In this document: positions 36,983 through 51,766 of the stretch, piece by piece
Position numbering within the stretch: position 1 is the stretch's first letter
How the letters are laid out: every line of letters starts with the position of its first letter
Origin: a virus
Reading direction: 5' to 3' (one strand)
Length of the DNA: 64,000 bases
IMG/VR virus record: IMGVR_UViG_3300023179_006341
Location: 1-64,000 of that record
Made by a program: the position numbers and the translations under genes
Notes under the pieces: generated by a model
The model's input: the letters and a program-made list of their open reading frames with translations, nothing else
The model's database searches: none
What the model was told of the DNA's origin: nothing

Positions 36983-37237
36983 ATGAACAAATTACTAGTT
37001 ATTGGTGCAGTAGTTTTGTTAGCAGGATGTGCATCAAGCAAAGATCAACTATACTATGATGCTGCTAAAGCTATTAGCAAAGACAATACCATGAGTCAAA
37101 CTGCTTGTTGGGCAGCTATTTCAGATATTGCCAAAGGTGGTGGTGAAGGTGCTAAAGTTGGTGCAATTAGTCTTGCTGACAAGTGCAAGAACGAAACCAT
37201 GAAGATTGAACGTCCTAGAAATTGGATTGGATTATAA
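36983..37237 (+). CDS. small lipoprotein
   Basis: Lipobox LAGC; RBS aagga. Confidence 0.75.
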   Translation: MNKLLVIGAVVLLAGCASSKDQLYYDAAKAISKDNTMSQTACWAAISDIAKGGGEGAKVGAISLADKCKNETMKIERPRNWIGL

Positions 37238-37993
37238 TAGTTTAGCTATTTGTATAGCTAGTTCATCATTACGTGGTGCATCAGGTAAATCGTTATCGTT
37301 AATATCACGATATCCAATGATTGGAAACTCTACGTTTTCATTTCTAATAAATCGTTGTATTAGTTCTTTTGGTGCAGCAATACCATCAGCATCCATTAAT
37401 TGACCATTAGGCAATTCTAACACAGCATGATCTGCACGTTTGCCATACGGTGTGTCTGCAATTAGTACAACCACTTTACCGCCATATTTTTTCTGTAGTG
37501 CTTGGGCAAAAACTACACACCCACCGTCAAACGGTCCGCTATCCGTGTGGTGTACTAATAATGTATATATTTTGTTCTTATTTTTAAATGGAAATTTACC
37601 TTCATGTATGATTTTTCTAGCTATTATACCATGACCAACAGGATATTCTTTATTAAACCTAATAGGTTGTAGCATAGGGTATAGGTATTTTGTTGTACCA
37701 CATTGTATATCAAACTTAGAACCACGTGGTACAAGGTGTTTACGCTCTAGTTTTCTAAATGTTTCTTCATCTACAACAATAGGTTCGCCAACAATGACTG
37801 AACCTATAGCAACTGCCTTACCTGTACCTGTACGAACGATGCCAACACGTTTACCTATGTATGGGTTTAAAGATGGTCCACGCCTACTTTCGTAATACTT
37901 TTTACCATCTACAATAAGATCAGCATAGTGTATATCACCATCGCTACGTATGTTTATGCCAATGGATGGTATATCAAACTCATTAAACTTCAT
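37232..37993 (-). CDS. two-domain protein: ASCH/PUA-like domain plus papain/transglutaminase-like Cys-His-Asp domain
   Basis: YADLIVDGKKYYESR (ASCH GxKxxExR); GGCVVFAQAL...HAV...MDADG. Confidence 0.6.
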   Translation of the reverse strand: MKFNEFDIPSIGINIRSDGDIHYADLIVDGKKYYESRRGPSLNPYIGKRVGIVRTGTGKAVAIGSVIVGEPIVVDEETFRKLERKHLVPRGSKFDIQCGTTKYLYPMLQPIRFNKEYPVGHGIIARKIIHEGKFPFKNKNKIYTLLVHHTDSGPFDGGCVVFAQALQKKYGGKVVVLIADTPYGKRADHAVLELPNGQLMDADGIAAPKELIQRFIRNENVEFPIIGYRDINDNDLPDAPRNDELAIQIAKLL

Positions 37994-38013
37994 TTATTAT
38001 AGCTTTCGTTTTA

Positions 38014-38874
38014 TTAAATTACAAATATTTTACCAACACTAGAGTTTAAAACGTCATCAAACATATAATTCATATCATTAGCTAATCGTTCAGATGCTTC
38101 CTTTCGTTCATTTTCATCACGATATTCAGGTTTAATATTTAAATACTGTGTTGGATTACCAAAAACTTTACGTCCATATCCTAGGTTAGTTGGTAAGGGA
38201 TTTAGTGTTACAGTGCCTGTACCTAAATATTGTGCAAATAATTCATACAAAAATTCATAAGGTCTACGAATTTGTCCTGTGCGACTACTGCGCTGTGTAC
38301 CAATAGCATTGAATAATGCATTGTATTCAGGAGTTAATTCTAAACTAAAGTTAGTATTAAATCTTGCTGATATCCTGCTGTAGTATTCTGCGAGCATATT
38401 GTTTACAGCACTAAAAAAATGCTTTTCAGCTTCTGACCAAGTACTCCATCCTCTATTGTTTCTTGTACCTGCTTGTATAGCATGTCCAAAACGATGTGCC
38501 ATTATCCATGGTGTAAGCATCACTCTAGCATCACCTTTATTACCAACAAAGACTACGGTTATTGCGTCATCACTTCCATCAATGATTTGATCAGATTGCT
38601 TTCCAAAAATAGTTCTAATTTGATCAGTTGTCATTGGGCCATATTCTATATATTTGCCTGTGCCACTGATGTTACTAAAAAATAATCTAAAATCATATGG
38701 AGTTTTTTCAAAAAACTTTTGTGTTTTTAACTTATTAGTAGGATGTGGAACTAATCTTCTATCAACAGGATTAAATGGTCCTGATTTTGCAAAATCCCCC
38801 ATCGGTTGGTAAGTGGACAATGCCATTTCATCAATGTCATCACTTGATTCAGTAATAAATTCAGTAGCTCTCAT
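38014..38874 (-). CDS. putative internal head protein with a zincin-like HRxxH motif
   Basis: MRATEFITE; WIMAHRFGHA; YEFLYELFAQY; TAAATA-N5-ATG on the minus strand. Confidence 0.55.
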   Translation of the reverse strand: MRATEFITESSDDIDEMALSTYQPMGDFAKSGPFNPVDRRLVPHPTNKLKTQKFFEKTPYDFRLFFSNISGTGKYIEYGPMTTDQIRTIFGKQSDQIIDGSDDAITVVFVGNKGDARVMLTPWIMAHRFGHAIQAGTRNNRGWSTWSEAEKHFFSAVNNMLAEYYSRISARFNTNFSLELTPEYNALFNAIGTQRSSRTGQIRRPYEFLYELFAQYLGTGTVTLNPLPTNLGYGRKVFGNPTQYLNIKPEYRDENERKEASERLANDMNYMFDDVLNSSVGKIFVI

Positions 38875-38906
38875 TTATATATTTATGAACAACGCTAAAT
38901 ATTATA

Positions 38907-40370
38907 ATGGATAAAAAGCACAAAAAATTACTAAAGTTTACTGATTGGGTTATTGGTCGTTTAGGCATAAAAAATAAACCACAGATACGCTTTAGTGATG
39001 ACAAATCGGAAGTTACCAAACATAGAACATTTGGTTCGACCACCCCTAATAATACCATATGGGTGCATGTTGGTGACCGTAATACAGCAGATGTTATGCG
39101 TACATTATGCCATGAATTAGTACATGCAAAACAATTTGAAATTGGTACCGCTAAAGCAAAGATGGCTCCAAAGCGTGAACAAGGCATAGAAGATGAGGCC
39201 AATGCAGTAGCAGGACGTATGATGCGTAAGTATGGTAAGATGGATGCCACCATTTATGAGAGTAAAGAACGTGCATGTTGTGCAGAATTACGTCAAGGTT
39301 TACTTAAGTTAGAAAAGACTGATTACGATACGATTGATCGTTTAATGAAGAAAATAGCCAAAAAGCATAACATTACTCCAAAACAATTACATGATTACTT
39401 TGTTGAAACACATGGTGTTATACCTGATACATGGATTAAAAACAAGAAGAAAGAGTTAAAAGAAAGTGATTTAGGCGAATATAAAATTGTTAATATTCCT
39501 GAATTTAGGATACAGGAGTTGATTAAAAGCGGTAATGAACACAAAGATACGATGAAAATTATTAAATCACCTGTAAGTGATTTATTTAGAGTGAGATTAG
39601 ATATAGAACATCCATATCGTGATTATTTTTTATATGATAAGAAAAATGATGTGTGTGTTGGTGCAGTATCTATTGAAACTGTTACTTCAATCCCAAGAAA
39701 AGCTTTTAATGCTATATTAAAAACTAATGTAGCTGTTGTTAGCCCACATATTGTATTGGATAAAGCATACCGTCAAAGTGGGTTAGGCAGTAGAATATAT
39801 TCTAGTTTTTTATATAGTAAAAATTGGGTGTTTATTACGGATAGACATACTGAAGCAGCATCTAAGTTATGGAATGCTTTAAGTAGTAAAAATGGTTTTG
39901 TGACATTATTTTATGATGTTGTCCAACAGAAAGTAGTTAATGATGTAAACGAAAATACCTTTCGTTTAATTGGTGCACCTGAACATTTTAAAATTAAGTT
40001 ATCAGAAAGTCGTGAAGGGTCATTAACGCATGAAGTAGCAGATAGTTTACCACATGCTTATGTATTACCTGACATTAATAGTGGTAATCCATATTTACAA
40101 TACAAGTTTGGGGTGGCTATTGCTTCAGCACGTGGCGCACAATCACGTAAAGATGATAATATTAACCCATTTGATGAAAACGGTATGACAGACGTATTTT
40201 CAGATAAAGAATTTGTAGTAAGTTTTGACCCACATATTGATGAAATTATTACTGCAGCATTGAAAAAAATTGGTATGCCTAATAACAAAAAGCAAGTTGG
40301 GGTAAAAGGTAGTAAAGAAAGCAATGATGTTGCCAAAGTAAGCCCTGTTATAGGATTTAAGGGGTTCTAA
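38907..40370 (+). CDS. multidomain protein: HExxH metallopeptidase, small domain, GNAT-like domain, and a C-terminal domain shared with 41490..41861
   Basis: RTLCHELVH...EDEANA; LDKAYRQSGLGSRIY...TEAASKLW; ends SPVIGFKGF. Confidence 0.6.
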   Translation: MDKKHKKLLKFTDWVIGRLGIKNKPQIRFSDDKSEVTKHRTFGSTTPNNTIWVHVGDRNTADVMRTLCHELVHAKQFEIGTAKAKMAPKREQGIEDEANAVAGRMMRKYGKMDATIYESKERACCAELRQGLLKLEKTDYDTIDRLMKKIAKKHNITPKQLHDYFVETHGVIPDTWIKNKKKELKESDLGEYKIVNIPEFRIQELIKSGNEHKDTMKIIKSPVSDLFRVRLDIEHPYRDYFLYDKKNDVCVGAVSIETVTSIPRKAFNAILKTNVAVVSPHIVLDKAYRQSGLGSRIYSSFLYSKNWVFITDRHTEAASKLWNALSSKNGFVTLFYDVVQQKVVNDVNENTFRLIGAPEHFKIKLSESREGSLTHEVADSLPHAYVLPDINSGNPYLQYKFGVAIASARGAQSRKDDNINPFDENGMTDVFSDKEFVVSFDPHIDEIITAALKKIGMPNNKKQVGVKGSKESNDVAKVSPVIGFKGF

Positions 40371-40371
40371 A

Positions 40372-41046
40372 ATGAAAATCGTAGAAATTATTAATGAAGA
40401 TACAGTTAATGAAATAAATTGGCGTAAAGCTGCTGCTACAGGTGCAACCGCATTGGCTGCGATGGGTGCATTAGGCAAAGCAGATGCAAGCGACAATACT
40501 AGAAGGGTAAGTCCACAAGCAGATGGCTCAATGAGCCAAAGTTTTGCACAGCAAGTTGCTGCAAACGCACCGAAGATACAAGTAGTTAAACCATTAGCCA
40601 ATGATTTTGAACAAATTGTCTATAAAGATACACATAGTAATAGATTTCTTAATGGGGTAAGAGATACTGCAGATGGTACTATTATATTACAAAGTGGTGC
40701 TGATAGTTTTCAAATTATAAGAGTTGCTAATGGTAAGGAAACAATTGATTATGTTAGTTCTAGAGTTTTGGGAAATGATACAAAAGCAGCTTTACAATCA
40801 ATAGCTAACAAATCAGATTCACAGCCAATGGCTCAACCTACTCAAAATGTTTCAGTTAAAGGAAATACACTAAGCTACAATGGAAAAGACTATAACATTG
40901 TTAGAATTAACAAAGATGGTTTACAGCCAAGGATAAGCAGGTTTGATGCTAAAGTATTAGTAGCATATCCTGATTTAGGAATTAGAAGCTTAGGATCTGC
41001 TAATGCAACTTTAGCAGGTGATACTGCTTACGTTTATATGGACTAA
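40372..41046 (+). CDS. putative internal head protein with a signal-peptide-like segment after the N-terminal leader
   Basis: MKIVEIINEDTVNE then INWRKAAATGATALAAMGALGKADA. Confidence 0.55.
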   Translation: MKIVEIINEDTVNEINWRKAAATGATALAAMGALGKADASDNTRRVSPQADGSMSQSFAQQVAANAPKIQVVKPLANDFEQIVYKDTHSNRFLNGVRDTADGTIILQSGADSFQIIRVANGKETIDYVSSRVLGNDTKAALQSIANKSDSQPMAQPTQNVSVKGNTLSYNGKDYNIVRINKDGLQPRISRFDAKVLVAYPDLGIRSLGSANATLAGDTAYVYMD

Positions 41047-41047
41047 C

Positions 41048-41482
41048 ATGAGAATATACGAAATATTAAAAGAAGATGCGGAAGACCGCCCACATTTATC
41101 AAAAGATCAGCTTGATGCGGTTGAACGTTTTGCTGATAAGTTATGGGAAAAATTAGGTATCGATGTAAAATTTGGTAGTCATTTTTTAGAACGATTATAT
41201 CGTCGTGAAAATGATCCACCCATTTCAGGGGCAGAATTAGTTCGTTTATTTAAACAAGAGTATCAAAAATATGGTAAAGAGATTGCATCATTACCACCTG
41301 AAACTGAAGGTGTGTTTATGGATTTATTGACTAACGTAAACTTACCCTTTGTTATTAAGCAACGTGACGAAGATGAACCAAAGAAAATATTAGGGCAAAC
41401 GATTATGCGTAAACCTAGTAATACAGTAAAGGGTGAATTTGTGCCTAAAGGTAAACCTTATAAAATTGGTAGAACGGATTAA
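41048..41482 (+). CDS. putative internal head protein
   Basis: MRIYEILKE; VERFADKLW..LGIDVKFGSHFLER. Confidence 0.55.
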   Translation: MRIYEILKEDAEDRPHLSKDQLDAVERFADKLWEKLGIDVKFGSHFLERLYRRENDPPISGAELVRLFKQEYQKYGKEIASLPPETEGVFMDLLTNVNLPFVIKQRDEDEPKKILGQTIMRKPSNTVKGEFVPKGKPYKIGRTD

Positions 41483-41489
41483 ATACAAT

Positions 41490-41861
41490 ATGCGAGCAAA
41501 AGAATTTATAACAGAACAAAACAGTATTGGCGAACCACCTGTTCGTGCAAAAGAAGCTTCACGTGGTTTACATAAATTTCGTGACTTAGAAGGTATGGAT
41601 CGTATTTACGAACTTAACCGTGTGATGATGGCAGTTGCCTGTACTGATGGAACTAAACCCGTAACGCTAGATTCTGAAAGTTATACAGGGCGTTACAATA
41701 CTGCACATCCTTATACAAAACAAGAACAAGATATGTTAAAAGTGGCATATGCTGCCGTAGGGTCAGATATGCATGATTTTAATGATGGTGATATGCGTAG
41801 TTTAGAAGTTAAAGATACAAATAAAACAAGCCCAATTCAGTCATTCAAAGGCTTCAAGTAA
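41490..41861 (+). CDS. putative internal head protein
   Basis: MRAKEFITE; TAAATA 4 nt before ATG; ends SPIQSFKGFK. Confidence 0.6.
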   Translation: MRAKEFITEQNSIGEPPVRAKEASRGLHKFRDLEGMDRIYELNRVMMAVACTDGTKPVTLDSESYTGRYNTAHPYTKQEQDMLKVAYAAVGSDMHDFNDGDMRSLEVKDTNKTSPIQSFKGFK

Positions 41862-41911
41862 AAAATTATCTCCGTCATGCAACAGCATAAGTAGTTACAC
41901 AGAGGACTACT

Positions 41912-42607
41912 ATGAAAAATATTGATATTAACAAAACAATCGATGGTGTTAAATTAAAATGGTACCATGAATGGTTAGCTACTCATATCTATGATGAAGG
42001 TGAAAGTGGCTTTCATGAACAACTTACAAGACAGGTTGTAACAAAGTATGTTGACCCTATTCAATTACCTAAAGATGCTAAAATTTTAGACATGGGCTGT
42101 GGTCCAGGCTACTTTATGAACGAAATGAAGCAACGTGGTTATACCAATTACCTTGGTATTACCTTAAGTCAAGGTGATATTGATATATGTAATAAAAATG
42201 GACATAAAGTTGAGTCATACGATTTGAGCTTTTTACCTCAAGAAAAGGGATATATAGATGAGTCAGTTGATTTTATCTTTTGTCGCCATGCATTAGAACA
42301 TAGCCCATATCCATTGTTTACTTTGGTTGAATATAATCGTGTGCTAAAACAAGGTTCTAAATTATATATTGAAGTACCCGCACCTGATTGTGAACGTATG
42401 CATGAATTTAACATTAATCACTATAGCATTTTTGGTGAACGTATGTTAGCAGCTTTACTACAGCGTACAGGATTTACAATTAATTTGTTTGAAAATTTAG
42501 AATTTGATCTTAATATGGGTCAAAATGAAGATGGTACACCACGTGCAGTACGTGAAAAGTTTTACTGTATCGTTGCTACAAAGGCTAGACCACTCGATTT
42601 AAAATAA
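41912..42607 (+). CDS. class I SAM-dependent methyltransferase
   Basis: ILDMGCGPG; DFIFCRHALEH; RVLKQG..YIEVP. Confidence 0.9.
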   Translation: MKNIDINKTIDGVKLKWYHEWLATHIYDEGESGFHEQLTRQVVTKYVDPIQLPKDAKILDMGCGPGYFMNEMKQRGYTNYLGITLSQGDIDICNKNGHKVESYDLSFLPQEKGYIDESVDFIFCRHALEHSPYPLFTLVEYNRVLKQGSKLYIEVPAPDCERMHEFNINHYSIFGERMLAALLQRTGFTINLFENLEFDLNMGQNEDGTPRAVREKFYCIVATKARPLDLK

Positions 42608-42624
42608 CACTCATAAATATCTTT

Positions 42625-42819
42625 ATGAGTGATTTAGATGATTTAAGAAAATTGGCAGGTATTACCCTGCCAAATTCTTCTGATTATGGTGCAGCGATTA
42701 GTATGTCTGCTACCCAAAAAGCGCAAATAATGCGAGAGAAAAATATTAGGCCTGGCGATCCTGCATGGTTTAAGTTATGGTTTTCCCAAACACATCTAAC
42801 AGGAGAAAAACCAATTTAG
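42625..42819 (+). CDS. small conserved phage protein
   Basis: LRKLAGI; NIRPGDPAWFKLWF; TAAATA-N5-ATG. Confidence 0.7.
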   Translation: MSDLDDLRKLAGITLPNSSDYGAAISMSATQKAQIMREKNIRPGDPAWFKLWFSQTHLTGEKPI

Positions 42820-42845: not shown

Positions 42846-44687
42846 ATGGCAGAACCTAATCCATCAAATGTAGCCCCATGGTATTTACGTAATATCAATC
42901 AAGCACTAGCTTTAGATGAAGATAGTGGAAATGTTTTTGTAAGAACGGGATTTCAGGGTAATATAATTATTTCAGGTAATGTAAATATTCCTGGCACTGT
43001 TACGGTAGATAGTTCTCCCGAAGATCCTGTGCATGTTCACTTAGATGAAATCGGAACATCGGGTATTCTTAATGTACCTTATATGCCAATCGGAGGTAAT
43101 GTAGTAGTAACATCAGGCAATGTCAACGCTAATGTATCGGGAAATGTAGGTATTACAGGTAATGTTAACATCGGTACTATGCCAAATGTTAACGCAAACA
43201 TTACTAGTAATGTAACAGTAGTTGATGGAGGTGGTAGTTTAACAGTTGATGGTAATGTAGGTATTACAGGCAATGTTAATATTGGTACAATGCCAAATGT
43301 TAATGCTTTAGTAACAGGAAATGTAACTTCCACATTAAGTGGCAATTTAGCAGGTATTACAGGAAATGTAACAGTAGTTGATGGAGGTGGTAGTTTAACA
43401 GTTGATGGTAATGTTGGTGTGACAGGTAATGTCAATATAGGCACCATGCCTAATGTTAATGCCAGCGTATCAGGCAATGTAAGCATAACTAACAATGCTA
43501 ATGTAGTATTAGGTGGTACTAATTTAGACGCATTTGGTCGTTTGCGTGTAAGTAATCCTGTTACATTATTTGATTCTCAGAATCGTTACTTAGATGGTCA
43601 ACAATTTAGCACTATAACTGCAGGTGGTGGCTTAAGAACTTATGTTCAAAATGAGAGTAGTTTTAATTTAGCAGTGGGAACTGCCAATGGTGATAGTGTT
43701 ATCACGCAATCATATACAACACAAGCGTATCAACCTGGTAAAAGTTTATTAGCACTCAATACATTTGCGTTTGCTAGTGCTAAACCAAATTTAAGACAAC
43801 GAGTGGGATATTTTACAAGTCAAAATGGTGTATTTTTTGAACAAGATGGTAGCACATTGTATATGGTAGTTAGAAGTTATACTACAGGTGCTGCTGTAGA
43901 CACTAGAGTAGCACAAAGTAGTTGGAACGGTGATGCACTAGATGGAAATGGTCCTAGCGGAATTACATTAGATCCTACACTTGTTCAAATATTTTGGTTA
44001 GACATTGAGTGGTTGGGTGTAGGCAACGTACGCACAGGCTTTGTGATAAATGGACAATTTATAGTTTGCCATACATTTACACATGCTAATGTCGTAGGAA
44101 ATACAAAAGTATACATGACAACTGCTACTCTGAACCCAAGATATGAAATTACTAATACAGGAATAACAGGTAGTGCTAGTACGATGAAGCAAATCTGTAG
44201 CACAGTAATGAGCGAAGGTGGCTATAATCCTAGCGTAAGCATACAATATAGCACCAATGGCACAAATGTAACTAGAGTATCAGGGTCAAATACGTTAACA
44301 AGTTTGACAAGCATAAGATTGAACCCTAGTTATCCTGATGCAGTTGTACTTCCTGCGCAAGTTGATTTATTATTAATTGATACAAGGTATGGGCAGTTTC
44401 AATTGATCGAAAATGCTACATTAGGTAATGCAGTATGGAGCAATGCTAGTGCCACAAGTGTAGTTCAAACTAGCGTTACTACCGATATAATAACTAATGG
44501 TAATGTAGTTTATGCAGGGCTTACTAGTAGTAGAGACAGCCTTGAGATCAGCGAGGACATAGCAAAAAGATTACAATTAAAAAGGTATGCGAACGGTAGT
44601 CCTATAACATTGACATTAGCCGTTTCTTATACAGGGACTAATACTGATGTACTATGGAAGCTAGGTTGGGAAGAAATTACTAATTGA
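42846..44687 (+). CDS. virion structural protein with N-terminal GNV-rich repeats
   Basis: Repeated GNVGITGNVNIGTMPNVNA; DAFGRLRVS, YQPGKS, DIEWLGVG C-terminal domain. Confidence 0.7.
   Translation: MAEPNPSNVAPWYLRNINQALALDEDSGNVFVRTGFQGNIIISGNVNIPGTVTVDSSPEDPVHVHLDEIGTSGILNVPYMPIGGNVVVTSGNVNANVSGNVGITGNVNIGTMPNVNANITSNVTVVDGGGSLTVDGNVGITGNVNIGTMPNVNALVTGNVTSTLSGNLAGITGNVTVVDGGGSLTVDGNVGVTGNVNIGTMPNVNASVSGNVSITNNANVVLGGTNLDAFGRLRVSNPVTLFDSQNRYLDGQQFSTITAGGGLRTYVQNESSFNLAVGTANGDSVITQSYTTQAYQPGKSLLALNTFAFASAKPNLRQRVGYFTSQNGVFFEQDGSTLYMVVRSYTTGAAVDTRVAQSSWNGDALDGNGPSGITLDPTLVQIFWLDIEWLGVGNVRTGFVINGQFIVCHTFTHANVVGNTKVYMTTATLNPRYEITNTGITGSASTMKQICSTVMSEGGYNPSVSIQYSTNGTNVTRVSGSNTLTSLTSIRLNPSYPDAVVLPAQVDLLLIDTRYGQFQLIENATLGNAVWSNASATSVVQTSVTTDIITNGNVVYAGLTSSRDSLEISEDIAKRLQLKRYANGSPITLTLAVSYTGTNTDVLWKLGWEEITN
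43209..43414 (+). repeat. 50-bp identical intragenic direct repeat (43209-43258 and 43365-43414)
   Basis: aatgtaacagtagttgatggaggtggtagtttaacagttgatggtaatgt, offset 156 nt. Confidence 0.85.
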
Positions 44688-44693
44688 CTGTAA

Positions 44694-45626
44694 ATGAATC
44701 ATTCAAACACTGTAAAATTAATTAAAAATCCATACGAAGCAACAGTTTTTAAAAACGACAACGAATTACAAGATTTTATAAAATGTTGTGACCCACAAAC
44801 AGGTTATCTATATTTTATGGATAATTTCTTTATTATTCAACACCCAACCAAAGGTAGTATGAATTATCATCCGTGGTCATATCAAAAACGATTAATAGAA
44901 ACTTATCATAATTATAGATATTCAATAGCGTTGATGCCACGTCAAAGTGGTAAAAGTACAAGTGCAGCAGGTTATCTTTTATGGTATGCAATGTTTGTTC
45001 CTGATAGCACAATTTTAATAGCTGCACATAAGTATGCAGGTTCACAAGAAATTATGCAACGTATACGATATGGTTATGAAAATTGTCCATTACACATTAA
45101 AGCAGGGGTTGTTACATATAATAAAGGATCACTAGATTTTGAAAATGGCAGTAGGATTATTTCCGCTACTACAACAGAAACTACAGGTCGTGGTCTCTCA
45201 ATATCATTATTATACTTAGATGAGTTTGCGTTCGTAAGACCAAGCATTGCTAAAGAATTTTGGACTTCTATTGCACCAACCTTAGCAACAGGTGGTAAAG
45301 CAATCATAACAAGCACACCAAATAGTGATGAAGATCAATTTGCTATAATTTGGAAAGGTGCAAATAAAACACAAGATGAATATGGTAATACAACAGAATT
45401 GGGAGTAAATGGATTTAAAGCATATAAAGCACATTGGAGCGAACAACCAGGTCGTGACACCGCTTGGGCTGACAACATGAAAGCACAATTAGGTGAAGAA
45501 CGTTTCAGACGAGAAATTGGGTGTTTTTCGGGTAAGACAAATATAAGACTTAAAGACTCAACAGGTAAAATATTTACAACAACCATGGAAGAATTAGAAA
45601 AAATGTTAGCAATTCGTAATAGCTGA
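44694..45626 (+). CDS. terL: terminase large subunit, N-terminal ATPase part, fused to a 34-aa N-intein (45522-45623)
   Basis: PRQSGKST; GRGLSISLLYLDEFAF; ITSTPN; RFRREIG|CFSGKTNIRL. Confidence 0.95.
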   Translation: MNHSNTVKLIKNPYEATVFKNDNELQDFIKCCDPQTGYLYFMDNFFIIQHPTKGSMNYHPWSYQKRLIETYHNYRYSIALMPRQSGKSTSAAGYLLWYAMFVPDSTILIAAHKYAGSQEIMQRIRYGYENCPLHIKAGVVTYNKGSLDFENGSRIISATTTETTGRGLSISLLYLDEFAFVRPSIAKEFWTSIAPTLATGGKAIITSTPNSDEDQFAIIWKGANKTQDEYGNTTELGVNGFKAYKAHWSEQPGRDTAWADNMKAQLGEERFRREIGCFSGKTNIRLKDSTGKIFTTTMEELEKMLAIRNS

Positions 45627-45647
45627 TGAAATAGTATAAATAAATAT

Positions 45648-46469
45648 ATGTTACAAAATAAATATCAAAAATGGTATATGAAAATAATATATCATGCTAC
45701 AAATCAAAAAAGACCACAAAAAGGTCATGAAATGCATCATATCATCCCAAAATGTATGGGTGGTTTAAACAAAAAAGAAAATTTAGTTAGACTTACATTA
45801 CGAGAACATTATATTTGTCATTTGTTATTGCCAAAGTTTACAACAGGCGATGACCAAAGAAAATTAAAATTTGCTCTTTGGTGTTTTATTAATAAGTGGG
45901 GAAGAAAATCTTGCAAATTTAAAATGAATAGTAAAATGTACGAAAAATTAAAGATTGAAATTTCTGATCAAATTTCTAAACTTAACAAAGGTAAAATTAA
46001 CCCCCCTTTAAGCGTGGAAATGATTAAAAAATTTTCTGAACGAATGAGAGGTGATTCTAACCCCATGTATGGAAAATTGGGTTCTGAAAATCCAAATTTT
46101 GGTAAGAAACGGCCTGGTATAGGTGGTAGAAAAAAAGGCACTACATGGTCAGACGAAGAGCGTTCTATACATCTTAAGATACGATCAGAAATAGGATATT
46201 ATAATTATTTAAAAGATCCGAAAAGAGGAGAAAAAATAAGTAATTCACAACGAGGAAGAATTGGGACAGCTTTGGGAAAAGTTTGGTATAACGATGGTAT
46301 TAATGAATACTATGGAAATCAAGTTCCTATAGGATTTAATAAAGGTAGATTGATTTCAAATTCTTCTAAAAAAGGCATGAAATGGTTTACTAATGGGGTA
46401 GTAAGTAAACAGTTTAAAGAAGATATGCAACCACAGGATTTTATTCGTGGAAGAATTATTAAAAAATAA
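45648..46469 (+). mobile_element. HNH homing endonuclease between the split-intein halves
   Basis: EMHHIIPKCMGG...NLVRLTLREHYICHLLL; NPMYGK, NPNFGK; WYNDG/WFTNG...GR repeats; own TATAAATA at 45635. Confidence 0.92.
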
Positions 46470-47532
46470 CTTAGGGCTACAAATACTTACTGATACAGGT
46501 TGGCAATCTTTTAGCGGCATTGTCAAAAAAGGTATTAAACACACTATAACTATAGAATTAGAAAATATCTCAGTAACTTTAACACCCGATCATAATGTTT
46601 TTTTGGAAAATTTGACAAAAATACCTGCGAACAACCTTAGAAAGGGTGACAGTGTTTGTACATTAAATGGGCCGCAAATTGTAAAAAATATTTATGAGCA
46701 TTGTTTAGAAGTTGTTTACGATATAGTTAATGCAGGTTCCAATAAAAGATTTTATGCAGATGATATACTTTGTTCAAACTGTGAATTTATTATTGGTGAT
46801 GAAACACTTATTAATCCTCTTATATTGAATACTCTTGAAGGTATTGAACCAATTGAAAGAATGGGTCAAGTACGTTGGTTTTCTAAACCGCAAAAGGGTA
46901 ATATTTATTGTGTAGGATTAGATCCAAGTTTAGGTACAGGAAGTGATCCTGCTGCAATACAAATATTTGAGGCTAATACAACTAAACAAGTTGGTGAATG
47001 GAAACATAATCGTACTACAATACCTGAACAAATTAAATTATTAGCTAAGATCATTGATTATATTGTAGATATCACAAAAGAACCAAATAATTTATATTAT
47101 AGTTTAGAAAATAATACTATAGGTGAAGCAGCATTGATCTCATTAGCAGAATATGGTGAAGAAAACATCAAGGGAACAATGTTAAGTGAACCTAAACAAG
47201 TAGGATCGACTAGAAGATATCGTAAAGGATTTAATACCACACAAAAAAGTAAATTAGCAGCATGTTCAAAGTTAAAAAATTTAATTGAAAGTGGAAAAAT
47301 GTCACTTAAGAGTAATGCTTTGATATCTGAATTAAAGTCATTTGTTGCTGCAGAAGGTAGTTATGCTGCTAAAATTGGAGAAACTGATGATTTAGTTATG
47401 GCAACATTATTAGTTGTAAGAATATTTCAACATTTACAAAACTATCATAGTGATTTAGACACGCATCTTAAAGATCATAGTGAATATATTGAACCAATGC
47501 CTTTTATAATGACATTAAGTTCTGTAAGCTGA
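46447..47532 (+). CDS. terL: 111-aa C-intein (46447-46779) plus terminase large subunit nuclease domain
   Basis: ILTDTGW; block B TPDH; block F VYDI; block G ILCSN|CEF; then VGLDPSLGTGSD, LENNTIG, TDDLVMA. Confidence 0.93.
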   Translation: MEELLKNNLGLQILTDTGWQSFSGIVKKGIKHTITIELENISVTLTPDHNVFLENLTKIPANNLRKGDSVCTLNGPQIVKNIYEHCLEVVYDIVNAGSNKRFYADDILCSNCEFIIGDETLINPLILNTLEGIEPIERMGQVRWFSKPQKGNIYCVGLDPSLGTGSDPAAIQIFEANTTKQVGEWKHNRTTIPEQIKLLAKIIDYIVDITKEPNNLYYSLENNTIGEAALISLAEYGEENIKGTMLSEPKQVGSTRRYRKGFNTTQKSKLAACSKLKNLIESGKMSLKSNALISELKSFVAAEGSYAAKIGETDDLVMATLLVVRIFQHLQNYHSDLDTHLKDHSEYIEPMPFIMTLSSVS

Positions 47533-47559
47533 TAAATACACTATAAAAGTGGATTTATC

Positions 47560-49863
47560 ATGCCAAAAAATAACGATTTAATTAATGTAGATTTAGAAAA
47601 ATTTCTTGATGCTAATAATTTAAATGCTATTCCATATGATAGTAGTGGAAAACAAGTACCCATTCCCGATGAAGCAGAATTATTTCAATTTAAATTTGCT
47701 TCCAATGGTGATGAAAAAGGTACAGCTACTGTATCGATTGATGGTACAAAAACTTTAAATGTTTATTACGATGATGCAATTATGACAGAAAACAATGCCT
47801 CTGACGATTGGTTTGATTTTATTAAACGATTAAAACGATTTGCAATGACGCATCAGTTAGATTTTAAAACTAAAAATATGGATAGGTTAGCTACTGATAT
47901 GAAAAAACGTGAACATCAAAAAAAATTAGATGAAGGTTATTATGGGACACGCCATACTAGTTATAGCGATAAAAACCCAGGCACCGTCAAAATGATTCTT
48001 AAACACAATCGCCCACTTGAAGAAACTGATGCAAGATTTAGAAACATTCAAAAGATTTTTTTAGAAACTGATACAGGAGAACGTTTTTTACTTGATACAA
48101 AAAAGCCAAATATAGCTAGAGCATTTGCAAGACATTTAGCTGAAGGTGGTCGTTATAATGATGAAAGATGGAATCATATTACTCAAATAGCTGAAGATAT
48201 TAATCGTTTAGGTGGTTTTGTACGTGCTACACGTAATAAACAATTTAATGAAAGTGCAGTAAAATTAGTTAATGAAGCACAAAATCATTATCAATCTTTG
48301 CGTGAAACAATAAAACAAATACAAGGTTCACGAGGATATAACAAATATTTTGAAAGTTGGAAACCGACTTTAAATGAAGATGATCATGATAATTCAATAT
48401 CAGAAATGTTTTTAACACAGAGACTTGATCCACGAGTTGAAAGTGCAATACCTGTATTAAATCGTTTATCAAAAAATATAACAGAAATGTCTGAAGTAAA
48501 TGAATTTACTGAATGGGCAAGTAATATAGTTCATGAAGTATTACATCCAACTGCAGAAGGTTCACTTGATGATTTAGTAGATTTAGTTGGTGCTGATAGT
48601 GAGTTTATGACTCTTGGTCCTGATGGAAAAAATGCAATCAATGAAATAGAAGGTATTATTAATGAACCTGCATTAAATTCACGCTTACAAAAAGCGGGAA
48701 TGAGTAAACCTGATCAAGACGCACGTCCTATAATTATTGGTTGGATGCAAGAAAATGCCAAGGATAAACATTATGAAGAAATTTTGGCTAAAATTGAAAC
48801 TGAGCAACCTGCACCTAAAATAACTAAACCTGCACCCCAACCTAAAAAAGAAACCCCACCTGATATACCTCCACCCCCACCTCCTGAAGTAGCTAGGGAA
48901 GACTATGATCCACGTTTATCACAAAAAACACAGATTGCAGGTACATTGCCAACATATCGCCACGCTAAAGCTGTACTAGACAAGTTAAACGGTGTTGAAG
49001 GTAAAACACTTGACTTTGGTGCAGGACTTGGTTTAGGTTCAGCAGAAATTGGTGCAGATAGTTATGAAATGCATCCTAAAGCAGGGTTCAAACCTAATTT
49101 TGATCGTGTAGATTCTATTCCCGATGAATCATATGCTAAAATTGTCTCGCTAAATGTTCTTAATGTCATACCAAATGACAAGGGATGGCGTGACGCAGCA
49201 GTTAAAGATATTGGTCGTATTTTGATGCCAAATGGTACTGCCTTAATTACTACTCGTGGCAAAGATGTATTAGCTGCAAAAGGTGAACCACAAGATGAAC
49301 CAAATAGTATTATCACAAGTGCAGGAACTTTCCAAAAAGGATTTACTCCACAAGAGTTAGCAAGTTATGTACAAAATGTATTAGGTAGTGGGTTTAAAGT
49401 TAAAGCAGTTAAAGTTGGTAGCGCACCTGCTGCTATCTTAGTTACAAAAGGTGGAGAACAAGTTAACGAACTCAAGGGTAAATTACCAACACCTGATGAA
49501 ATGAGAACATTGTTACAAAAACAAAAGAAACGCTTTGATGATCAAGGTTTTGTACGTGCTGCTGATGATACAGATAAATTAGCAAAAACTTTTTATAAGC
49601 CTGAACCATCTAAAAAAATAGATACAATAATGAAAGAATTTGCTGAATCATTAGATGAAGCTAAGGATAAAGAACCATCTGTGAAAATACGTAATCCTGT
49701 AGCAAAAAATGCTATGGCAGGTATTGGGGGTGGTGCGGCAGGACAACATAAAGATAAGAAAAAAGCTGATCAACGTGGTGATGTAAAGCATAAAAAAGAT
49801 AGAATCCCAATGGATCTTGATGAAGGTTCACTTGATAGGATCAGAAAACTATCAGGGTTATAA
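47560..49863 (+). CDS. large T4-like head-associated protein carrying an internal SAM-dependent methyltransferase domain (about 48901-49470)
   Basis: GERF, ARAFARH; Pro-rich linker; TLDFGAGLG, NVLNVI, GTFQKGFTPQEL; ends LDRIRKLSGL. Confidence 0.6.
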   Translation: MPKNNDLINVDLEKFLDANNLNAIPYDSSGKQVPIPDEAELFQFKFASNGDEKGTATVSIDGTKTLNVYYDDAIMTENNASDDWFDFIKRLKRFAMTHQLDFKTKNMDRLATDMKKREHQKKLDEGYYGTRHTSYSDKNPGTVKMILKHNRPLEETDARFRNIQKIFLETDTGERFLLDTKKPNIARAFARHLAEGGRYNDERWNHITQIAEDINRLGGFVRATRNKQFNESAVKLVNEAQNHYQSLRETIKQIQGSRGYNKYFESWKPTLNEDDHDNSISEMFLTQRLDPRVESAIPVLNRLSKNITEMSEVNEFTEWASNIVHEVLHPTAEGSLDDLVDLVGADSEFMTLGPDGKNAINEIEGIINEPALNSRLQKAGMSKPDQDARPIIIGWMQENAKDKHYEEILAKIETEQPAPKITKPAPQPKKETPPDIPPPPPPEVAREDYDPRLSQKTQIAGTLPTYRHAKAVLDKLNGVEGKTLDFGAGLGLGSAEIGADSYEMHPKAGFKPNFDRVDSIPDESYAKIVSLNVLNVIPNDKGWRDAAVKDIGRILMPNGTALITTRGKDVLAAKGEPQDEPNSIITSAGTFQKGFTPQELASYVQNVLGSGFKVKAVKVGSAPAAILVTKGGEQVNELKGKLPTPDEMRTLLQKQKKRFDDQGFVRAADDTDKLAKTFYKPEPSKKIDTIMKEFAESLDEAKDKEPSVKIRNPVAKNAMAGIGGGAAGQHKDKKKADQRGDVKHKKDRIPMDLDEGSLDRIRKLSGL

Positions 49864-49864
49864 T

Positions 49865-51766
49865 ATGTCAGAACTAATATTGTTGGAATCATCTAAACCA
49901 TCTGTTGGTCGTGAATTCCAACACTTAGAGGATCTTATATACATTGAAGGTAAACGTGGTATTAAACGTGTACTAGAATGTATAGCAGGTATTATTAAGC
50001 GTCAACCACTTGAAGTAAAATGGGATGGAAGTCCTGCAATATTATTCGGTAGAACTGATAATGGGCGTTTTCATTTTGGTGACAAGTATAGTCGTGATAT
50101 TGTAGATAATCCACGTGCAGTATATGAGCAATATATTGGACGCAAGCCTAAAAAAACATTTGAGCGTGAACAATTTGCACGTGATATGGCTGCATTGTTT
50201 GAAGTATATGAAGCAGCAACACCAAAAGATTTTCGTGGTTTTTTAGAAGCAGGATTATTATATAAGAATTCACCTGCACTAACTGAAGATTGTTTTCAAT
50301 GTAATCCAAACACAGTAATTTACAAAATTAATAACAGTAGTAACTTGGGTAAGCGTGTTGCCAATAGTAAGAGTGGATGTGCGGCTACAGCATATTTTCA
50401 ACATTTACCTGCCACAGGTGGTAGAAGATATCCTGTAGGCGATCATTCCAATCATTTTAATAGTAATGATGTAGTTATTATACCACCTTTGCACACAAGT
50501 GATACGGTGAGATTAGACCGTAGCATGTTAGAAAAATTATGGAATTTTGCTAAACAAAAACAACATAGTATTGATCAGTTTGTTGGACCACAAAACATTA
50601 AAAAAATGATTTATGAGTATGTAAATAGTCAAGTAAGTGAAAATGAATTAAGTGCATTACATAATTTAGGTGATAATTTTACAAGATGGTCACGTGATAG
50701 TTTATCTGCAAAAGAACAAAATATATTGGCTGAACATTTAAAACAACACATAGATGGTGCCAATGATACGTTTAGGTTAGTACGTGCAACAATGAAATTA
50801 AAAGATATGATTGTTGACCAATTAGAAGAATCGACATTAAGTAAAATTGGTATACAAGCAGAATTACCTGATGGACAACGTGGTGGTGAAGGATTTGTCT
50901 ATGATATTAATGAAGGTATTAATCCTATCAAATTAGTTAAACGTGGATCATTTACACGAGCAAATAAATTTAAGAATGAGTCAAAATATTTAAAAGAGTC
51001 ATTAAGTAGAAGTGGTAAAAGTGATCGTGCTGTCATTACTTTTGGTCGTTGTATGGGTCATCGTGGACATATGTATTTGGCTAATAGTGTGTTTACAACT
51101 GCTAAAGAACAAGGTGCAGATCCATATATTATTGTAAGTCGTACATTGGGTGATGATGATCCACTGACTCCGAATGAAAAATTATCTATCTATCATAAAG
51201 TATTTCCAAATCATAAGCATTGTTTTCAAGCTTCAGACGATAGTATGCCAACATTAATGAGTGCCTTAAAGAAATTAAATGAATTAGGATACAAGCATAT
51301 TACTGCTATCTTTGGTAATGATCGTGCTGATAGTATGAGTCATATTAAAGAATATAATGGGCGCAGTTATCAATTTGAAACATTAAACGTAATAAGTCGT
51401 CAACAAACTAATGATCCATACCGTAATATAAATGGACCACGTGGTACGGATATGCGTAATGTATTAAATAATCCAAATTTATCTGAAAAAGAAAAATTTG
51501 GATATTGGCGTAAATGTATGAGTCCACAATTAAGTGATGATGATGTACAATATATAATGGATATAGTAAAAAAACGTATTGGACATAATTTAAATGAAGC
51601 AGATAATCCAATGTATATTGGTGGTAACACTAATAGCCCCATCCCAGGCACCCCTGAAGATTTAGCCGATACTAGAACACCTGAACAAAAACGCAAAGAT
51701 GCCAAGCGAGCGATTAAGCAGGCACGAGAATTACGCAAATTTATGGGTCATAATGAAGTTCGTTAA
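49865..51766 (+). CDS. fusion of a KxDG ligase-like (DUF6267-like) domain and a cytidylyltransferase-like domain
   Basis: HLEDL, VKWDGSPA, GGEGFV..KLVKR..F; then VITFGR..GHRGH, DPL, FGNDR. Confidence 0.65.
   Translation: MSELILLESSKPSVGREFQHLEDLIYIEGKRGIKRVLECIAGIIKRQPLEVKWDGSPAILFGRTDNGRFHFGDKYSRDIVDNPRAVYEQYIGRKPKKTFEREQFARDMAALFEVYEAATPKDFRGFLEAGLLYKNSPALTEDCFQCNPNTVIYKINNSSNLGKRVANSKSGCAATAYFQHLPATGGRRYPVGDHSNHFNSNDVVIIPPLHTSDTVRLDRSMLEKLWNFAKQKQHSIDQFVGPQNIKKMIYEYVNSQVSENELSALHNLGDNFTRWSRDSLSAKEQNILAEHLKQHIDGANDTFRLVRATMKLKDMIVDQLEESTLSKIGIQAELPDGQRGGEGFVYDINEGINPIKLVKRGSFTRANKFKNESKYLKESLSRSGKSDRAVITFGRCMGHRGHMYLANSVFTTAKEQGADPYIIVSRTLGDDDPLTPNEKLSIYHKVFPNHKHCFQASDDSMPTLMSALKKLNELGYKHITAIFGNDRADSMSHIKEYNGRSYQFETLNVISRQQTNDPYRNINGPRGTDMRNVLNNPNLSEKEKFGYWRKCMSPQLSDDDVQYIMDIVKKRIGHNLNEADNPMYIGGNTNSPIPGTPEDLADTRTPEQKRKDAKRAIKQARELRKFMGHNEVR

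What the first reader, a model, noticed from the sequence alone, without database searches (positions are those of the whole stretch)
37232..51766. Candidate capsid-cargo system: many proteins with T4-like capsid-targeting leaders and enzyme domains separated by xxE sites
Seen: unrelated proteins begin MRATEFITE (38874 minus), MRAKEFITE (41490), MRIYEILKE (41048), MKIVEIINE (40372), MKFNEF (37993 minus), MSELILLE (49865) and, elsewhere, MLTREFIQE (16628). Domain boundaries within 38907, 37232, 47560 and 49865 coincide with IYE, LKE, LSE, IHE, VNE, LDE and LNE. Established: T4 internal proteins use the leader MKTYQEFIAE, are cut by the gp21 protease after (I/L)-x-E and are injected with the DNA. 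Inference: this phage packages a large, modular set of enzymes (kinase, peptidases, GNAT, ASCH, methyltransferase, nucleotidyltransferase) as polyproteins released at head maturation for day-zero host takeover or anti-defence.
Basis: partly seen in the sequence, partly recalled or inferred. Interest (0 to 1): 0.8.

Follow-up and report, generated by a model that had tools for sequence, protein, structure and literature searches.

The report
Phage capsid-cargo leaders and jointed polyproteins
A fragment of an uncultured freshwater jumbo phage puts a short T4-like "load into the head, cut here" peptide on a swappable set of proteins and joins enzyme modules at the same cut motif, so its injected protein payload can probably be read from sequence; no cutting or packaging has been measured.

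Summary
The strict leader M[KR]xxE[FIL][ILV]xE occurs 4 times in the 79.5-kb contig. All four are gene starts between 38.8 and 41.5 kb; codon-permuted genomes give 0.015.

The window is about 23% of a roughly 345-kb phage, and its head genes lie off the contig. A near-identical relative has a T4-type head module (gp20 portal, S77/gp21 protease, gp23 capsid protein). So do all five large contigs that carry the leader.

MRAxEFITE aligns with the T4 capsid-targeting sequence MKTYQEFIAE. In IMG/VR it heads at least 19 unrelated families, including SLT, GH19 and NUDIX enzymes. It is conserved at the amino-acid level, and conservation stops at Glu9.

In three multidomain families (the 487-, 633- and 767-aa proteins), hydrophobic-x-Glu sites sit at module joints. 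Relatives gain or lose modules exactly there.

Two further candidate signals emerged. One is an S-x-E…SPVxxFKGY tail. The other is an …RIKKLSGL tail shared with the scaffold protein.

The best reading is head-packaged cargo processed by the prohead protease, a new variant of the T4 internal-protein system. Cleavage, packaging and injection are all inferred. MKFNEF is not a convincing leader. This scan has reported the same theme in other uncultured T4-like phages.

The parts
16628..17281 (+). 217-aa Zeta-toxin/AAA_33-type P-loop kinase with the leader variant MLTREFIQE (leader 16628-16654).
   Evidence: TAAATA lies 7 nt upstream of the ATG.
37232..37993 (-). 253-aa ASCH-domain protein. MKFNEF is not a convincing leader. 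It has a single [IL]xE site (IHE131) between the ASCH part and the C-terminal part. Membership of the system is uncertain.
   Evidence: Conserved at 97% in all close relatives.
38014..38874 (-). 286-aa protein of unknown function with the leader MRATEFITE (38848-38874). It is an accessory cassette.
   Evidence: L057 and L106 are homologues with the same leader. Present at 99% identity in L133/L134 and absent from L129, L131 and L132. TAAATA lies upstream. No cultured-phage homologue. An Atlas lead to ATLF zincins is weak.
38907..40370 (+). 487-aa four-module protein. Modules: zincin-like peptidase aa 1-118, ending in an invariant IYE (nt 38907-39260); helical module aa 119-186, ending LKE (39261-39464); variable module aa 187-367, ending LSE (39465-40007); internal-protein-like module aa 368-487 with an S-K-E…SPVIGFKGF tail (40008-40367).
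   Evidence: Alignment A2. A relative lacks exactly aa 187-367. AF2 shows pLDDT dips at 111-120 and after 186. Weak fold matches to IrrE and minigluzincins.
40372..41046 (+). 224-aa protein with the leader MKIVEIINE (40372-40398), followed by an Ala-rich hydrophobic segment. It is an accessory cassette.
   Evidence: Absent from L129-L132, present in L133/L134. The IINE|D motif is also found at the N-termini of the scaffold and the acidic head protein of the close relative.
41048..41482 (+). 144-aa protein with the leader MRIYEILKE (41048-41074). Present in all close relatives.
   Evidence: phrog_23027 matches the C-terminal part.
41490..41861 (+). 123-aa member of the commonest leader-bearing family. 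It has the leader MRAKEFITE (41490-41516), a small helical core, an invariant S-x-E (SLE106) and the tail …TSPIQSFKGFK.
   Evidence: AF2 pLDDT 77 with residues 8-11 below 50. TAAATA lies upstream.
42625..42819 (+). 64-aa protein that starts MSDLDDLRKLAGI, the same motif as the scaffold and 767-aa tails. It heads the transcription unit of the 613-aa virion protein.
42846..44687 (+). 613-aa virion structural protein (context: late/structural neighbourhood).
   Evidence: phrog_1645, E 2.5e-101. Annotated as a virion structural protein in cyanophages and HMO-2011.
47560..49863 (+). 767-aa carrier protein. It consists of a conserved roughly 430-aa virion-protein domain, a Pro-rich linker, a methyltransferase-like module (about aa 451-640, followed by VNE), a spacer ending LDE700, and a tail ending LDE755|GSLDRIRKLSGL.
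   Evidence: The PA5oct homologue gp278 is marked ESI-MS/MS in its record, and the phAPEC6-type homologue is annotated as a structural protein; both lie next to TerL.
49865..51766 (+). 633-aa protein. It has the leader MSELILLE (49865-49888), a DUF6267 domain with a ligase-like KxDG motif (aa 19-367), the joint YLKE378|S, a cytidylyltransferase-like domain (aa 370-578), LNE578 and a C-terminal tail.

Best explanation
The window belongs to an uncultured freshwater jumbo phage, about 345 kb, with a T4-type head. A short N-terminal peptide marks proteins for incorporation into the prohead core. Its consensus is MRAxEFITE, with variants MRIYEILKE, MKIVEIINE, MLTREFIQE and MSELILLE. It is removed after the final Glu by the phage's gp21-type (S77) prohead protease, as the T4 capsid-targeting sequence MKTYQEFIAE is.

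Larger proteins (487, 633 and 767 aa) are strings of modules joined by the same hydrophobic-x-Glu motif. They would be cut into separate pieces inside the head. New modules are gained and lost by recombination at these joints.

Two C-terminal peptides probably act as further anchoring or propeptide signals: S-x-E…SPVxxFKGY, and [VLM]xE…RIKKLSGL, which is shared with the scaffold protein.

The cargo would then leave the head with the DNA.

Shown here: the motifs, their portability, their conservation at joints, cassette exchange, and the presence of the protease in the lineage.

Inferred: targeting, cleavage, packaging, injection and any role in the host.
For: 1. Enrichment. There are 4 strict leaders, all at gene starts, against 0.015 expected.

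2. Portability.
- The 123 complete proteins among them fall into 19 unrelated clusters. Cargo includes SLT, GH19 and NUDIX enzymes.

3. Peptide-level selection. Position 3 was left unspecified in the pattern, yet it is Ala in 113 of 122 hits, using all four Ala codons. Synonymous codons occur at every position, and conservation ends at Glu9.

4. The protease.
- An S77/gp21-type protease is present in 5 of 5 large leader-bearing contigs.
- It is also present in G006, a relative whose 487-aa protein is 93% identical to the window's. There it sits in a module confirmed by Pfam as Portal_T4, Peptidase_S77 and Gp23.
- Each large genome has 3-5 leader genes and none with the reversed control pattern.
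- The same loose pattern finds ipII and ipIII in T4.

5. Head proteins of the relative carry matching sites: MCP MSKVLLE|S…ALLE|G…LLQE|S; scaffold …GIINE|D; acidic protein …LIINE|D.

6. Equivalence of the leader and internal sites. The C-terminal module of the 487-aa protein is homologous to free-standing proteins of about 125 aa. Where those carry MRAxEFITE, the fused form carries KLSE.

7. Joints.
- In A2 only three x-x-E columns are conserved: IYE118 (23 of 24 sequences; in the 24th, P0021, IYE is kept but an inserted module ending VKE|S fills that column), [LMV]xE367 (18/19) and SxE471 (18/18). The first two lie at module boundaries; the third heads the C-terminal tail.
- In the DUF6267-to-cytidylyltransferase linker, 41 of 41 distinct linkers hold [ILMV]xE, against 9.1±2.6 in shuffles. 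Extra modules are inserted right after it.
- In close relatives of the 767-aa protein, cassettes are inserted at LDE700 and are bounded by I/L/V-x-E.

8. Cassette mosaicism among six close relatives. One relative lacks exactly the stretch between LKE|S and LSE|S.

9. DUF6267 homologues carry MRAYQFITE, MKIAEIITE or MxxLLE directly before the conserved core. The T4-like cyanophage homologues have no leader.

10. AF2 models. The leader is partly disordered (residues 8-11 below pLDDT 50; mean 48 over 1-10) in the 123-aa model. IYE118 and LKE186 fall at pLDDT dips between domains.

11. Late-type TAAATA lies 4-10 nt before the ATG of 16628, 38874, 38907, 41490 and 42625.

12. The N-domain of the 767-aa protein is homologous to PA5oct gp278, which its GenBank record marks as a virion structural protein detected by ESI-MS/MS.

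13. Literature. gp21 cuts after L/I-x-E. CTS residues 4 and 7 target and residues 8 and 10 are needed for processing. Alt is cut at both ends (PMC9026906). The CTS sequence is quoted in bioRxiv 10.1101/2021.01.19.427310.
Against: - No proteomic, biochemical or genetic data exist for this lineage. The leader-bearing proteins have no homologues in cultured phages.
- The window's own contig lacks the head module, so the protease is inferred from a near-identical relative.
- Hydrophobic-x-Glu is a short, common motif. Homologues are phylogenetically related, so the joint statistics overstate independence.
- The small family is not basic (median pI 6.5), unlike the T4 internal proteins.
- The tail sites are S-x-E, which is not the T4 rule.
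- In the window's 767-aa protein the site before the methyltransferase reads VARE, not V-x-E.
- The 487-aa protein itself lacks the N-terminal leader that most of its homologues have.
Confidence: 0.62

Rival explanations
1. The leader and the joint motifs are conserved for reasons other than head targeting and proteolysis. Examples are an N-terminal element that helps translation of short-leader late mRNAs, a docking peptide for another late complex, or simple linker and helix-cap preferences. On this reading the proteins act uncut in the infected cell.
For: - No cleavage or packaging data exist.
- Several genes have TAAATA only 4-10 nt before the ATG, so 5' leaders would be very short.
- The cyanophage homologues of the DUF6267 and cytidylyltransferase genes lack leaders and carry no virion-protein annotation in the record.
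Against: - Conservation is at the amino-acid level, with free synonymous variation and an unspecified Ala kept in 93% of hits.
- The same position is filled by an internal KLSE in fused homologues, which a translation-start element cannot explain.
- The motif aligns with the experimentally defined T4 CTS and co-occurs with S77 in 5/5 large contigs.
- Cargo such as SLT and GH19 fits virion-borne proteins.
Confidence: 0.17
2. The multidomain proteins are classical polyvalent proteins. They are cut by their own embedded zincin-like metallopeptidase before packaging or after injection, not by the prohead protease.
For: - The 487-aa family has an invariant HELxH…EDEANA zincin-like domain, and the invariant IYE lies directly at its end.
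- One relative of the 767-aa protein carries an HExxH cassette.
- Iyer et al. propose such self-processing (PMC5512222).
Against: - The DUF6267-cytidylyltransferase family and most of the 767-aa family have the same joints but no metallopeptidase.
- Single-domain leader proteins need a protease acting in trans.
- Cutting after Glu with a hydrophobic P3 residue is the gp21 rule (PMC9026906).
Confidence: 0.12
3. The leader is a tag for the phage's own ClpXP/ClpS proteolysis system or another degradation or secretion route.
For: The same contig encodes ClpX, ClpP and ClpS-like proteins beyond the window.
Against: - A complete 338-kb genome with 5 leader genes has no ClpP, while S77 is present in 5/5.
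- The residue exposed after Glu9 is variable and mostly not an N-degron type.
- The leader is acidic, not signal-peptide-like.
Confidence: 0.04

Closest known systems
Phage T4 internal proteins IPI/IPII/IPIII with the capsid-targeting sequence (MKTYQEFIAE), processed by the gp21 prohead protease
   Same: - A leader of about 9-10 aa that shares E-F-I-(A/T)-E and ends in I-x-E.
- The leader is portable across unrelated proteins.
- The loci are hypervariable.
- A gp21-type S77 protease and a gp20/gp23 head are present in the lineage.
- There are a few leader genes per genome.
   Different: - The host clade is an uncultured jumbo phage of about 345 kb.
- The consensus is MRAxEFITE.
- The cargo is mostly enzymes and is not basic.
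- Leaders also head multi-module proteins with internal cut motifs.
- There are extra C-terminal tails.
- Nothing has been shown experimentally.
T4 Alt (ADP-ribosyltransferase packaged in the head, cut by gp21 at both termini)
   Same: It is an enzyme cargo with propeptides at both ends (PMC9026906). The small family here likewise has a conserved N-leader and a C-terminal S-x-E…FKGY peptide.
   Different: There is no sequence relationship. The C-terminal site here is S-x-E, and its cleavage is only a guess.
Polyvalent proteins of phages and conjugative elements (Iyer, Burroughs, Anand, de Souza, Aravind 2017; PMC5512222)
   Same: - Several unrelated enzymatic domains in one polypeptide.
- A zincin-like metallopeptidase as a hub domain.
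- Predicted packaging in the capsid and delivery on invasion.
   Different: - The proteins here are small (2-4 modules).
- They are addressed by a T4-type leader or tail.
- They are punctuated by a conserved prohead-protease-type motif at every joint. That motif is not part of the published definition.
Propeptides of head and ejection proteins in phiKZ, 201phi2-1 and SPN3US, cut at S/A/G-x-E or A-x-E by distant gp21 homologues
   Same: - Giant phages with a gp21-related protease that cuts after Glu.
- N-terminal propeptides thought to target proteins to the prohead (PMC5694885).
- The S-x-E and A-x-E columns here resemble those rules.
   Different: - Their propeptides are mostly longer than 100 aa.
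- No shared short leader across many families has been reported.
- The head genes here match the T4 Pfam families directly.
C-terminal coat-binding peptides of scaffolding proteins and cargo-loading peptides of encapsulins (from general knowledge, not tested here)
   Same: A short conserved C-terminal peptide (…IKRLAGL on the scaffold, …RIKKLSGL on the 767-aa family) could dock cargo to the shell interior.
   Different: This rests on motif sharing only. No binding evidence exists.

Membership tests
T4-type capsid-targeting sequence / internal-protein system | N-terminal peptide of about 10 aa that ends in L/I-x-E and resembles MKTYQEFIAE | tested here: met
   MRATEFITE, MRAKEFITE, MRIYEILKE, MKIVEIINE, MLTREFIQE and MSELILLE. 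EFI(T/A)E aligns with the T4 CTS (sequence from bioRxiv 10.1101/2021.01.19.427310). The same pattern retrieves T4 ipII and ipIII.
T4-type capsid-targeting sequence / internal-protein system | The same phage encodes a gp21-type (Peptidase_S77) prohead protease and a T4-type head | tested here: inconclusive
   Absent from the 79.5-kb fragment, which is 23% complete. Present in the near-identical relative G006 together with Portal_T4 and Gp23, and in 5/5 large leader-bearing contigs.
T4-type capsid-targeting sequence / internal-protein system | The leader is portable: the same peptide sits on unrelated mature proteins | tested here: met
   19 unrelated clusters among 123 proteins. No paralogy among the window's leader proteins.
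T4-type capsid-targeting sequence / internal-protein system | The leader is cut after Glu, and the mature protein is found inside the virion and ejected | not testable with these tools
   No cultured relative of these proteins and no proteome.
T4-type capsid-targeting sequence / internal-protein system | Small, highly basic DNA-associated internal proteins | tested here: not met
   Median pI of the small family after leader removal is 6.5; for o41490 it is 6.3. The cargo is mostly enzymes.
Polyvalent proteins (Iyer et al. 2017) | Two or more unrelated effector-type domains in one polypeptide of a phage or plasmid | tested here: met
   487 aa: zincin-like, helical, variable and C-terminal modules. 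633 aa: DUF6267 plus cytidylyltransferase. 767 aa: virion-protein domain plus methyltransferase-like module.
Polyvalent proteins (Iyer et al. 2017) | Zincin-like metallopeptidase domain (HExxH plus a downstream Glu) | tested here: met
   H69, E70, H73, E95 and D96 are invariant in 24 homologues. Fold matches to IrrE and minigluzincins are weak, at probability 0.8-0.85 and E>0.03. This applies to the 487-aa family only.
phiKZ/SPN3US-type long propeptides | N-terminal propeptides of about 80-130 aa removed at S/A/G-x-E | tested here: not met
   The leaders here are 8-9 aa. S-x-E is conserved only in the C-terminal tails.

The most novel reading that the evidence does not exclude
Freshwater jumbo phages with T4-type heads use a three-part address code:
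- an N-terminal MRAxEFITE leader;
- a C-terminal S-x-E…SPVxxFKGY peptide;
- a C-terminal [VLM]xE…RIKKLSGL peptide that copies the scaffold protein's own tail.

Together with protease-cut joints, this code would load and then release a freely swappable set of enzymes. The injected proteome of uncultured phages could then be predicted from sequence alone. The roughly 115-aa FKGY family would be a new class of major internal head protein.
Probability: 0.33. Interest if true: 0.8.

Novelty: new variant of a known kind. Interest (0 to 1): 0.62.

Why it matters
If the reading is right, a nine-residue tag and a three-residue joint identify which proteins an uncultured giant phage carries into the cell at the start of infection. 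Such proteins are otherwise found only by virion proteomics of cultured phages.

It would extend the T4 capsid-targeting principle from three small basic proteins to a broad, modular enzyme payload. That payload includes a ligase-like/cytidylyltransferase fusion, a Zeta-type kinase, NUDIX, cell-wall hydrolases, a zincin peptidase and a methyltransferase.

It would also show how new cargo is plugged in by recombination at protease sites. And it would offer natural tags for loading foreign proteins into large capsids.

The papers searched here describe the T4 CTS, phiKZ/SPN3US propeptides and polyvalent proteins. None describes this leader family or protease-punctuated cassette exchange.

Tried and rejected
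- Complex prediction of MCP + scaffold (from G006) + the 123-aa protein gave no verdict. It is not used as evidence either way.
- Foldseek of the 123-aa model against BFVD found nothing beyond one uncharacterised phage protein. The function of the small family stays unknown.
- Foldseek of the 487-aa model against PDB gave only weak rows.
- tblastn of the 286-aa and 123-aa proteins against cultured phages found nothing. Megablast of the region also found nothing.
- A DNA-level repeat or promoter cassette as the cause of the shared N-termini was rejected: upstream DNA is not conserved and the codons differ.
- A ClpXP/ClpS degron was rejected, because ClpP is absent from a complete genome that has leader genes.
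- MKFNEF as a leader was rejected. It has no closing I/L-x-E and lies at the ASCH domain edge.
- PA5oct gp213 (MKIKEIILE, next to the head protease) was considered as a cultured example. Its record carries no MS mark and it has no clear family relationship.
- The LSGL tail was looked for in the cultured homologues (PA5oct gp278, phAPEC6-type). It is absent there, so the tail is specific to this clade.
- A 2nd-order Markov control timed out and was replaced by codon permutation.
Full report
**What the DNA is.** The window is the first 64 kb of a 79.5-kb IMG/VR viral fragment. CheckV rates it 23% complete, which implies a genome of about 345 kb. Around the finding the gene order is as follows:
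- a lysis cassette;
- the leader cluster;
- a 613-aa virion protein (phrog_1645);
- a T4-type large terminase interrupted by a split intein and an HNH gene;
- a 767-aa protein, then a 633-aa protein;
- a 323-aa protein that looks gp32-like by eye (Pfam found nothing), and a RecA/UvsX-type recombinase.

The arrangement terminase → structural protein → RecA is shared with the jumbo phages PA5oct and phAPEC6-type Asteriusvirus. The contig has no gp21 or gp23 homologue, so the head module lies elsewhere in the genome.

**Check of the observation.** All quoted N-termini are present. The strict pattern M[KR]xxE[FIL][ILV]xE occurs four times in the six-frame translation of the contig. Each occurrence is the start of an ORF between 38.8 and 41.5 kb. 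In 200 codon-permuted genomes the mean is 0.015 and the maximum 1. A looser pattern adds MLTREFIQE at 16628. The proteins behind the leaders are not paralogues. Upstream DNA is not conserved, and the leaders differ by synonymous codons.

**The leader is a widespread, portable peptide.**
Nearly all are at the start of an open reading frame.
- The third codon was left free in the pattern. It encodes Ala in 113 of 122 distinct hits and uses all four Ala codons. Every fixed position uses several synonymous codons, and conservation stops at Glu9.
- The 123 complete proteins fall into 19 unrelated clusters.
- Representatives include an SLT lytic transglycosylase, a GH19 hydrolase and a NUDIX enzyme.
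- In the window, the leader variant at 16628 heads a Zeta-toxin/AAA_33-type kinase.

**Link to a T4-type head protease.**
- Five of five large leader-bearing contigs (191-353 kb, three of them complete) encode a Peptidase_S77 (gp21) homologue.
- Each has 3-5 leader genes and none with the reversed control pattern.
- A near-identical relative of the window (G006) has a 487-aa protein 93% identical to the window's. It carries a head module that Pfam confirms as Portal_T4, Peptidase_S77 and Gp23, with a coiled-coil scaffold gene between protease and capsid genes.
- Its head proteins show matching sites: MCP MSKVLLE|S…ALLE|G…VILE|N…LLQE|SSAG; scaffold …NGIINE|D; an acidic core-like protein …LIINE|D. 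Compare the window's MSELILLE|S and MKIVEIINE|D.
- As a positive control, the same loose pattern finds exactly three sites in T4. Two are ipII and ipIII, which carry the experimentally defined CTS.
- The literature gives the gp21 rule as L/I-x-E. CTS residues 4 and 7 are needed for targeting and residues 8 and 10 for processing (PMC9026906). The sequence MKTYQEFIAE is quoted in bioRxiv 10.1101/2021.01.19.427310.
- Aligned on EFI(A/T)E, the Phe, Ile and Glu of the new leader fall on T4 residues 7, 8 and 10.

**Polyprotein joints.** Three families were examined.

*The 487-aa protein.* There are 24 homologues of 305-487 aa.
- Most begin MR[ILF]xE[ILV]; the window's copy does not.
- The zincin-like domain (invariant HELxH…EDEANA) ends in an invariant I-Y-E. 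After that point the sequences diverge into different modules.
- The C-terminal module is always preceded by [LMV]-x-E.
- Across the alignment only three x-x-E columns are conserved: IYE118 (23 of 24; in P0021 IYE is kept but an inserted module ending VKE|S fills that column), position 367 (18/19) and S-x-E471 (18/18). The first two are module boundaries and the third heads the C-terminal tail. The other [IL]xE sites in the window protein are not conserved.
- A close relative lacks exactly residues 187-367, the stretch between LKE|S and LSE|S. The two junctions share TTAnnnGAAAGT.
- AF2 gives confident domains at 1-115 and 121-185, with pLDDT dips at 111-120 and after 186.

*The 633-aa protein.*
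- Homologues carry MRAYQFITE, MRAHNFITE, MKIAEIITE, MKITEVILE, MSTSILLE or MxxLLE directly before the conserved VGREFQH core.
- The split homologues in the T4-like cyanophage P-HM1 have no leader.
- All 41 distinct short linkers between the DUF6267 and cytidylyltransferase domains contain [ILMV]xE. Shuffled linkers give 9.1±2.6, with a maximum of 18.
- Larger relatives have extra modules inserted right after this site. One of those modules ends …EIFITE|N.

*The 767-aa protein.*
- Homologues range from 442 to 1306 aa.
- They share the N-terminal domain of about 430 aa. This domain is homologous to PA5oct gp278, which its record marks as detected by ESI-MS/MS.
- They also share the extreme C-terminus …L.RI[KR][KR]LSGL, usually preceded by [VLM]xE.
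- Variable modules lie between these two parts: methyltransferase-like here, ferritin-like or HExxH elsewhere.
- Eight close relatives differ by cassettes inserted at the window's LDE700. The cassettes are bounded by IDE|A, LDE|N, VKE|A and LEE|A.

**Equivalence of leader and internal site.** The C-terminal module of the 487-aa protein aligns along its length with free-standing proteins of about 125 aa. Compare …KLSE|SREGSLTHEVADSLPHAYVLP…PYLQYKFGVAIA… with MRAREFITE|VAMGRTGSLQQDIALALPGAWKIP…PYLQYRFGVAIA…. The leader Glu and the joint Glu therefore occupy the same place before the same mature sequence. This is what one protease making one product would predict.

**Two further candidate signals.**
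- *The FKGY tail.* The commonest leader-bearing family (69 of 123 proteins, often in tandem pairs) includes the window's 123-aa protein. It ends in an invariant S-x-E followed by about 16 residues, …SP[VI]xxFKGY. The 487-aa family has the same tail. The AF2 model (pLDDT 77) shows a small helical core, with residues 8-11 below pLDDT 50. It has no structural relatives.
- *The LSGL tail.* The 767-aa family's tail matches the C-terminus of the scaffold protein, …NVIxIKRLAGL, in 6 of 6 genomes examined. It also matches the N-terminus of the 64-aa protein at 42625.

Whether either peptide docks cargo to the shell or the core is a guess.

**Accessory nature and timing.** Among six close relatives, three elements are present or absent in independent combinations: the 286-aa MRATEFITE gene, the 224-aa MKIVEIINE gene and the middle module of the 487-aa protein. 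The 286-aa gene is 99% identical between genomes whose flanking genes are about 83% identical. TAAATA lies 4-10 nt before the ATG of 16628, 38874, 38907, 41490 and 42625. This resembles the T4 late promoter core, so late expression is an inference.

**Rivals.**
- A translation-start or DNA-level element does not fit the synonymous variation or the internal equivalent.
- Self-processing by the embedded zincin, as in the polyvalent-protein model (PMC5512222), could apply to the 487-aa family. It cannot explain the same joints in families without a peptidase.
- A link to the phage's ClpXP is unlikely. A complete genome with five leader genes lacks ClpP.

**Limits.** Nothing here shows cleavage, packaging or injection. 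The protease is inferred from relatives. The motif is short. The statistics on homologues are not phylogenetically independent. The small family is not basic, unlike the T4 internal proteins. S-x-E is not the T4 rule. MKFNEF at 37993 is not supported as a leader, and the leaderless methyltransferase at 41912 has no evidence of membership.

**Verdict.** The most likely explanation is a T4-type capsid-targeting and prohead-protease system extended to a modular, exchangeable enzyme payload in an uncultured jumbo-phage clade. That makes it a new variant of a known kind. Earlier entries of this scan report the same theme on other uncultured T4-like phages. I did not use them as evidence.

Noticed in passing
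window 44694-47532: The large terminase is interrupted. The N-part ends in an intein-like CFSGK… stretch of 34 aa. A free-standing HNH-type gene follows (45648-46469). The next ORF then begins with the rest of an intein, ending …DDILCSN|CEF, before the nuclease domain. This looks like a split intein with a homing-endonuclease gene between the halves.
   Followed up: no
L139 (T4 NC_000866 18966-19130, gene 61.1): The loose leader pattern also hits T4 gp61.1, a 54-aa hypothetical protein that starts MKTFKEFIKE. This is a CTS-like N-terminus on a protein the T4 record annotates only as hypothetical.
   Followed up: partly
L128:3382-3768 (-) and L127:1462-2910 (PA5oct gp213, gp279): PA5oct gp213 lies divergent to the head maturation protease. 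It reads MKIKEIILE five codons after its annotated start. gp279, a structural protein marked as MS-detected and lying next to TerL, starts MKLFEVFTLYE|D. These may be leader-like peptides in a cultured jumbo phage.
   Followed up: partly
L136:5507-7123 (-) in relative G006: A 538-aa ORF lies just downstream of the major capsid gene. By eye it looks like a subtilisin-type (S8) serine protease; this was not checked against Pfam. If so, it is a second protease in the head neighbourhood, and it could matter for the S-x-E tail sites.
   Followed up: no
window 39456-39470 and 39999-40013: The 181-aa variable module of the 487-aa protein is flanked by the short direct repeat TTAnnnGAAAGT, which encodes L-x-E-S. 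The cut motif may therefore also serve as microhomology for cassette exchange.
   Followed up: partly
genome beyond the window, about 66-76 kb of the contig (G000:C1 67826-75341): This stretch holds ClpX-like, bS21-like, IscU-like, Hsp20-like, ClpS-like and ClpP-like ORFs, all identified by eye. The gene set resembles the bS21-encoding freshwater huge phages of Bacteroidetes described in PMC9723584.
   Followed up: no
proteins P0220, P0225 (homologues of window 47560-49863): Some members of the 767-aa carrier family have a ferritin-like domain (PF00210) as their variable C-terminal module. P0037 and P0015, from one 225-kb contig, share a module between two different polyproteins.
   Followed up: no
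window 40372-41046: After the MKIVEIINE leader comes a basic stretch and then an Ala-rich hydrophobic segment (WRKAAATGATALAAMGALGKADA). It resembles a signal peptide or membrane anchor that removal of the leader would expose. SPN3US gp47 has a comparable transmembrane helix after its propeptide (PMC5694885).
   Followed up: no
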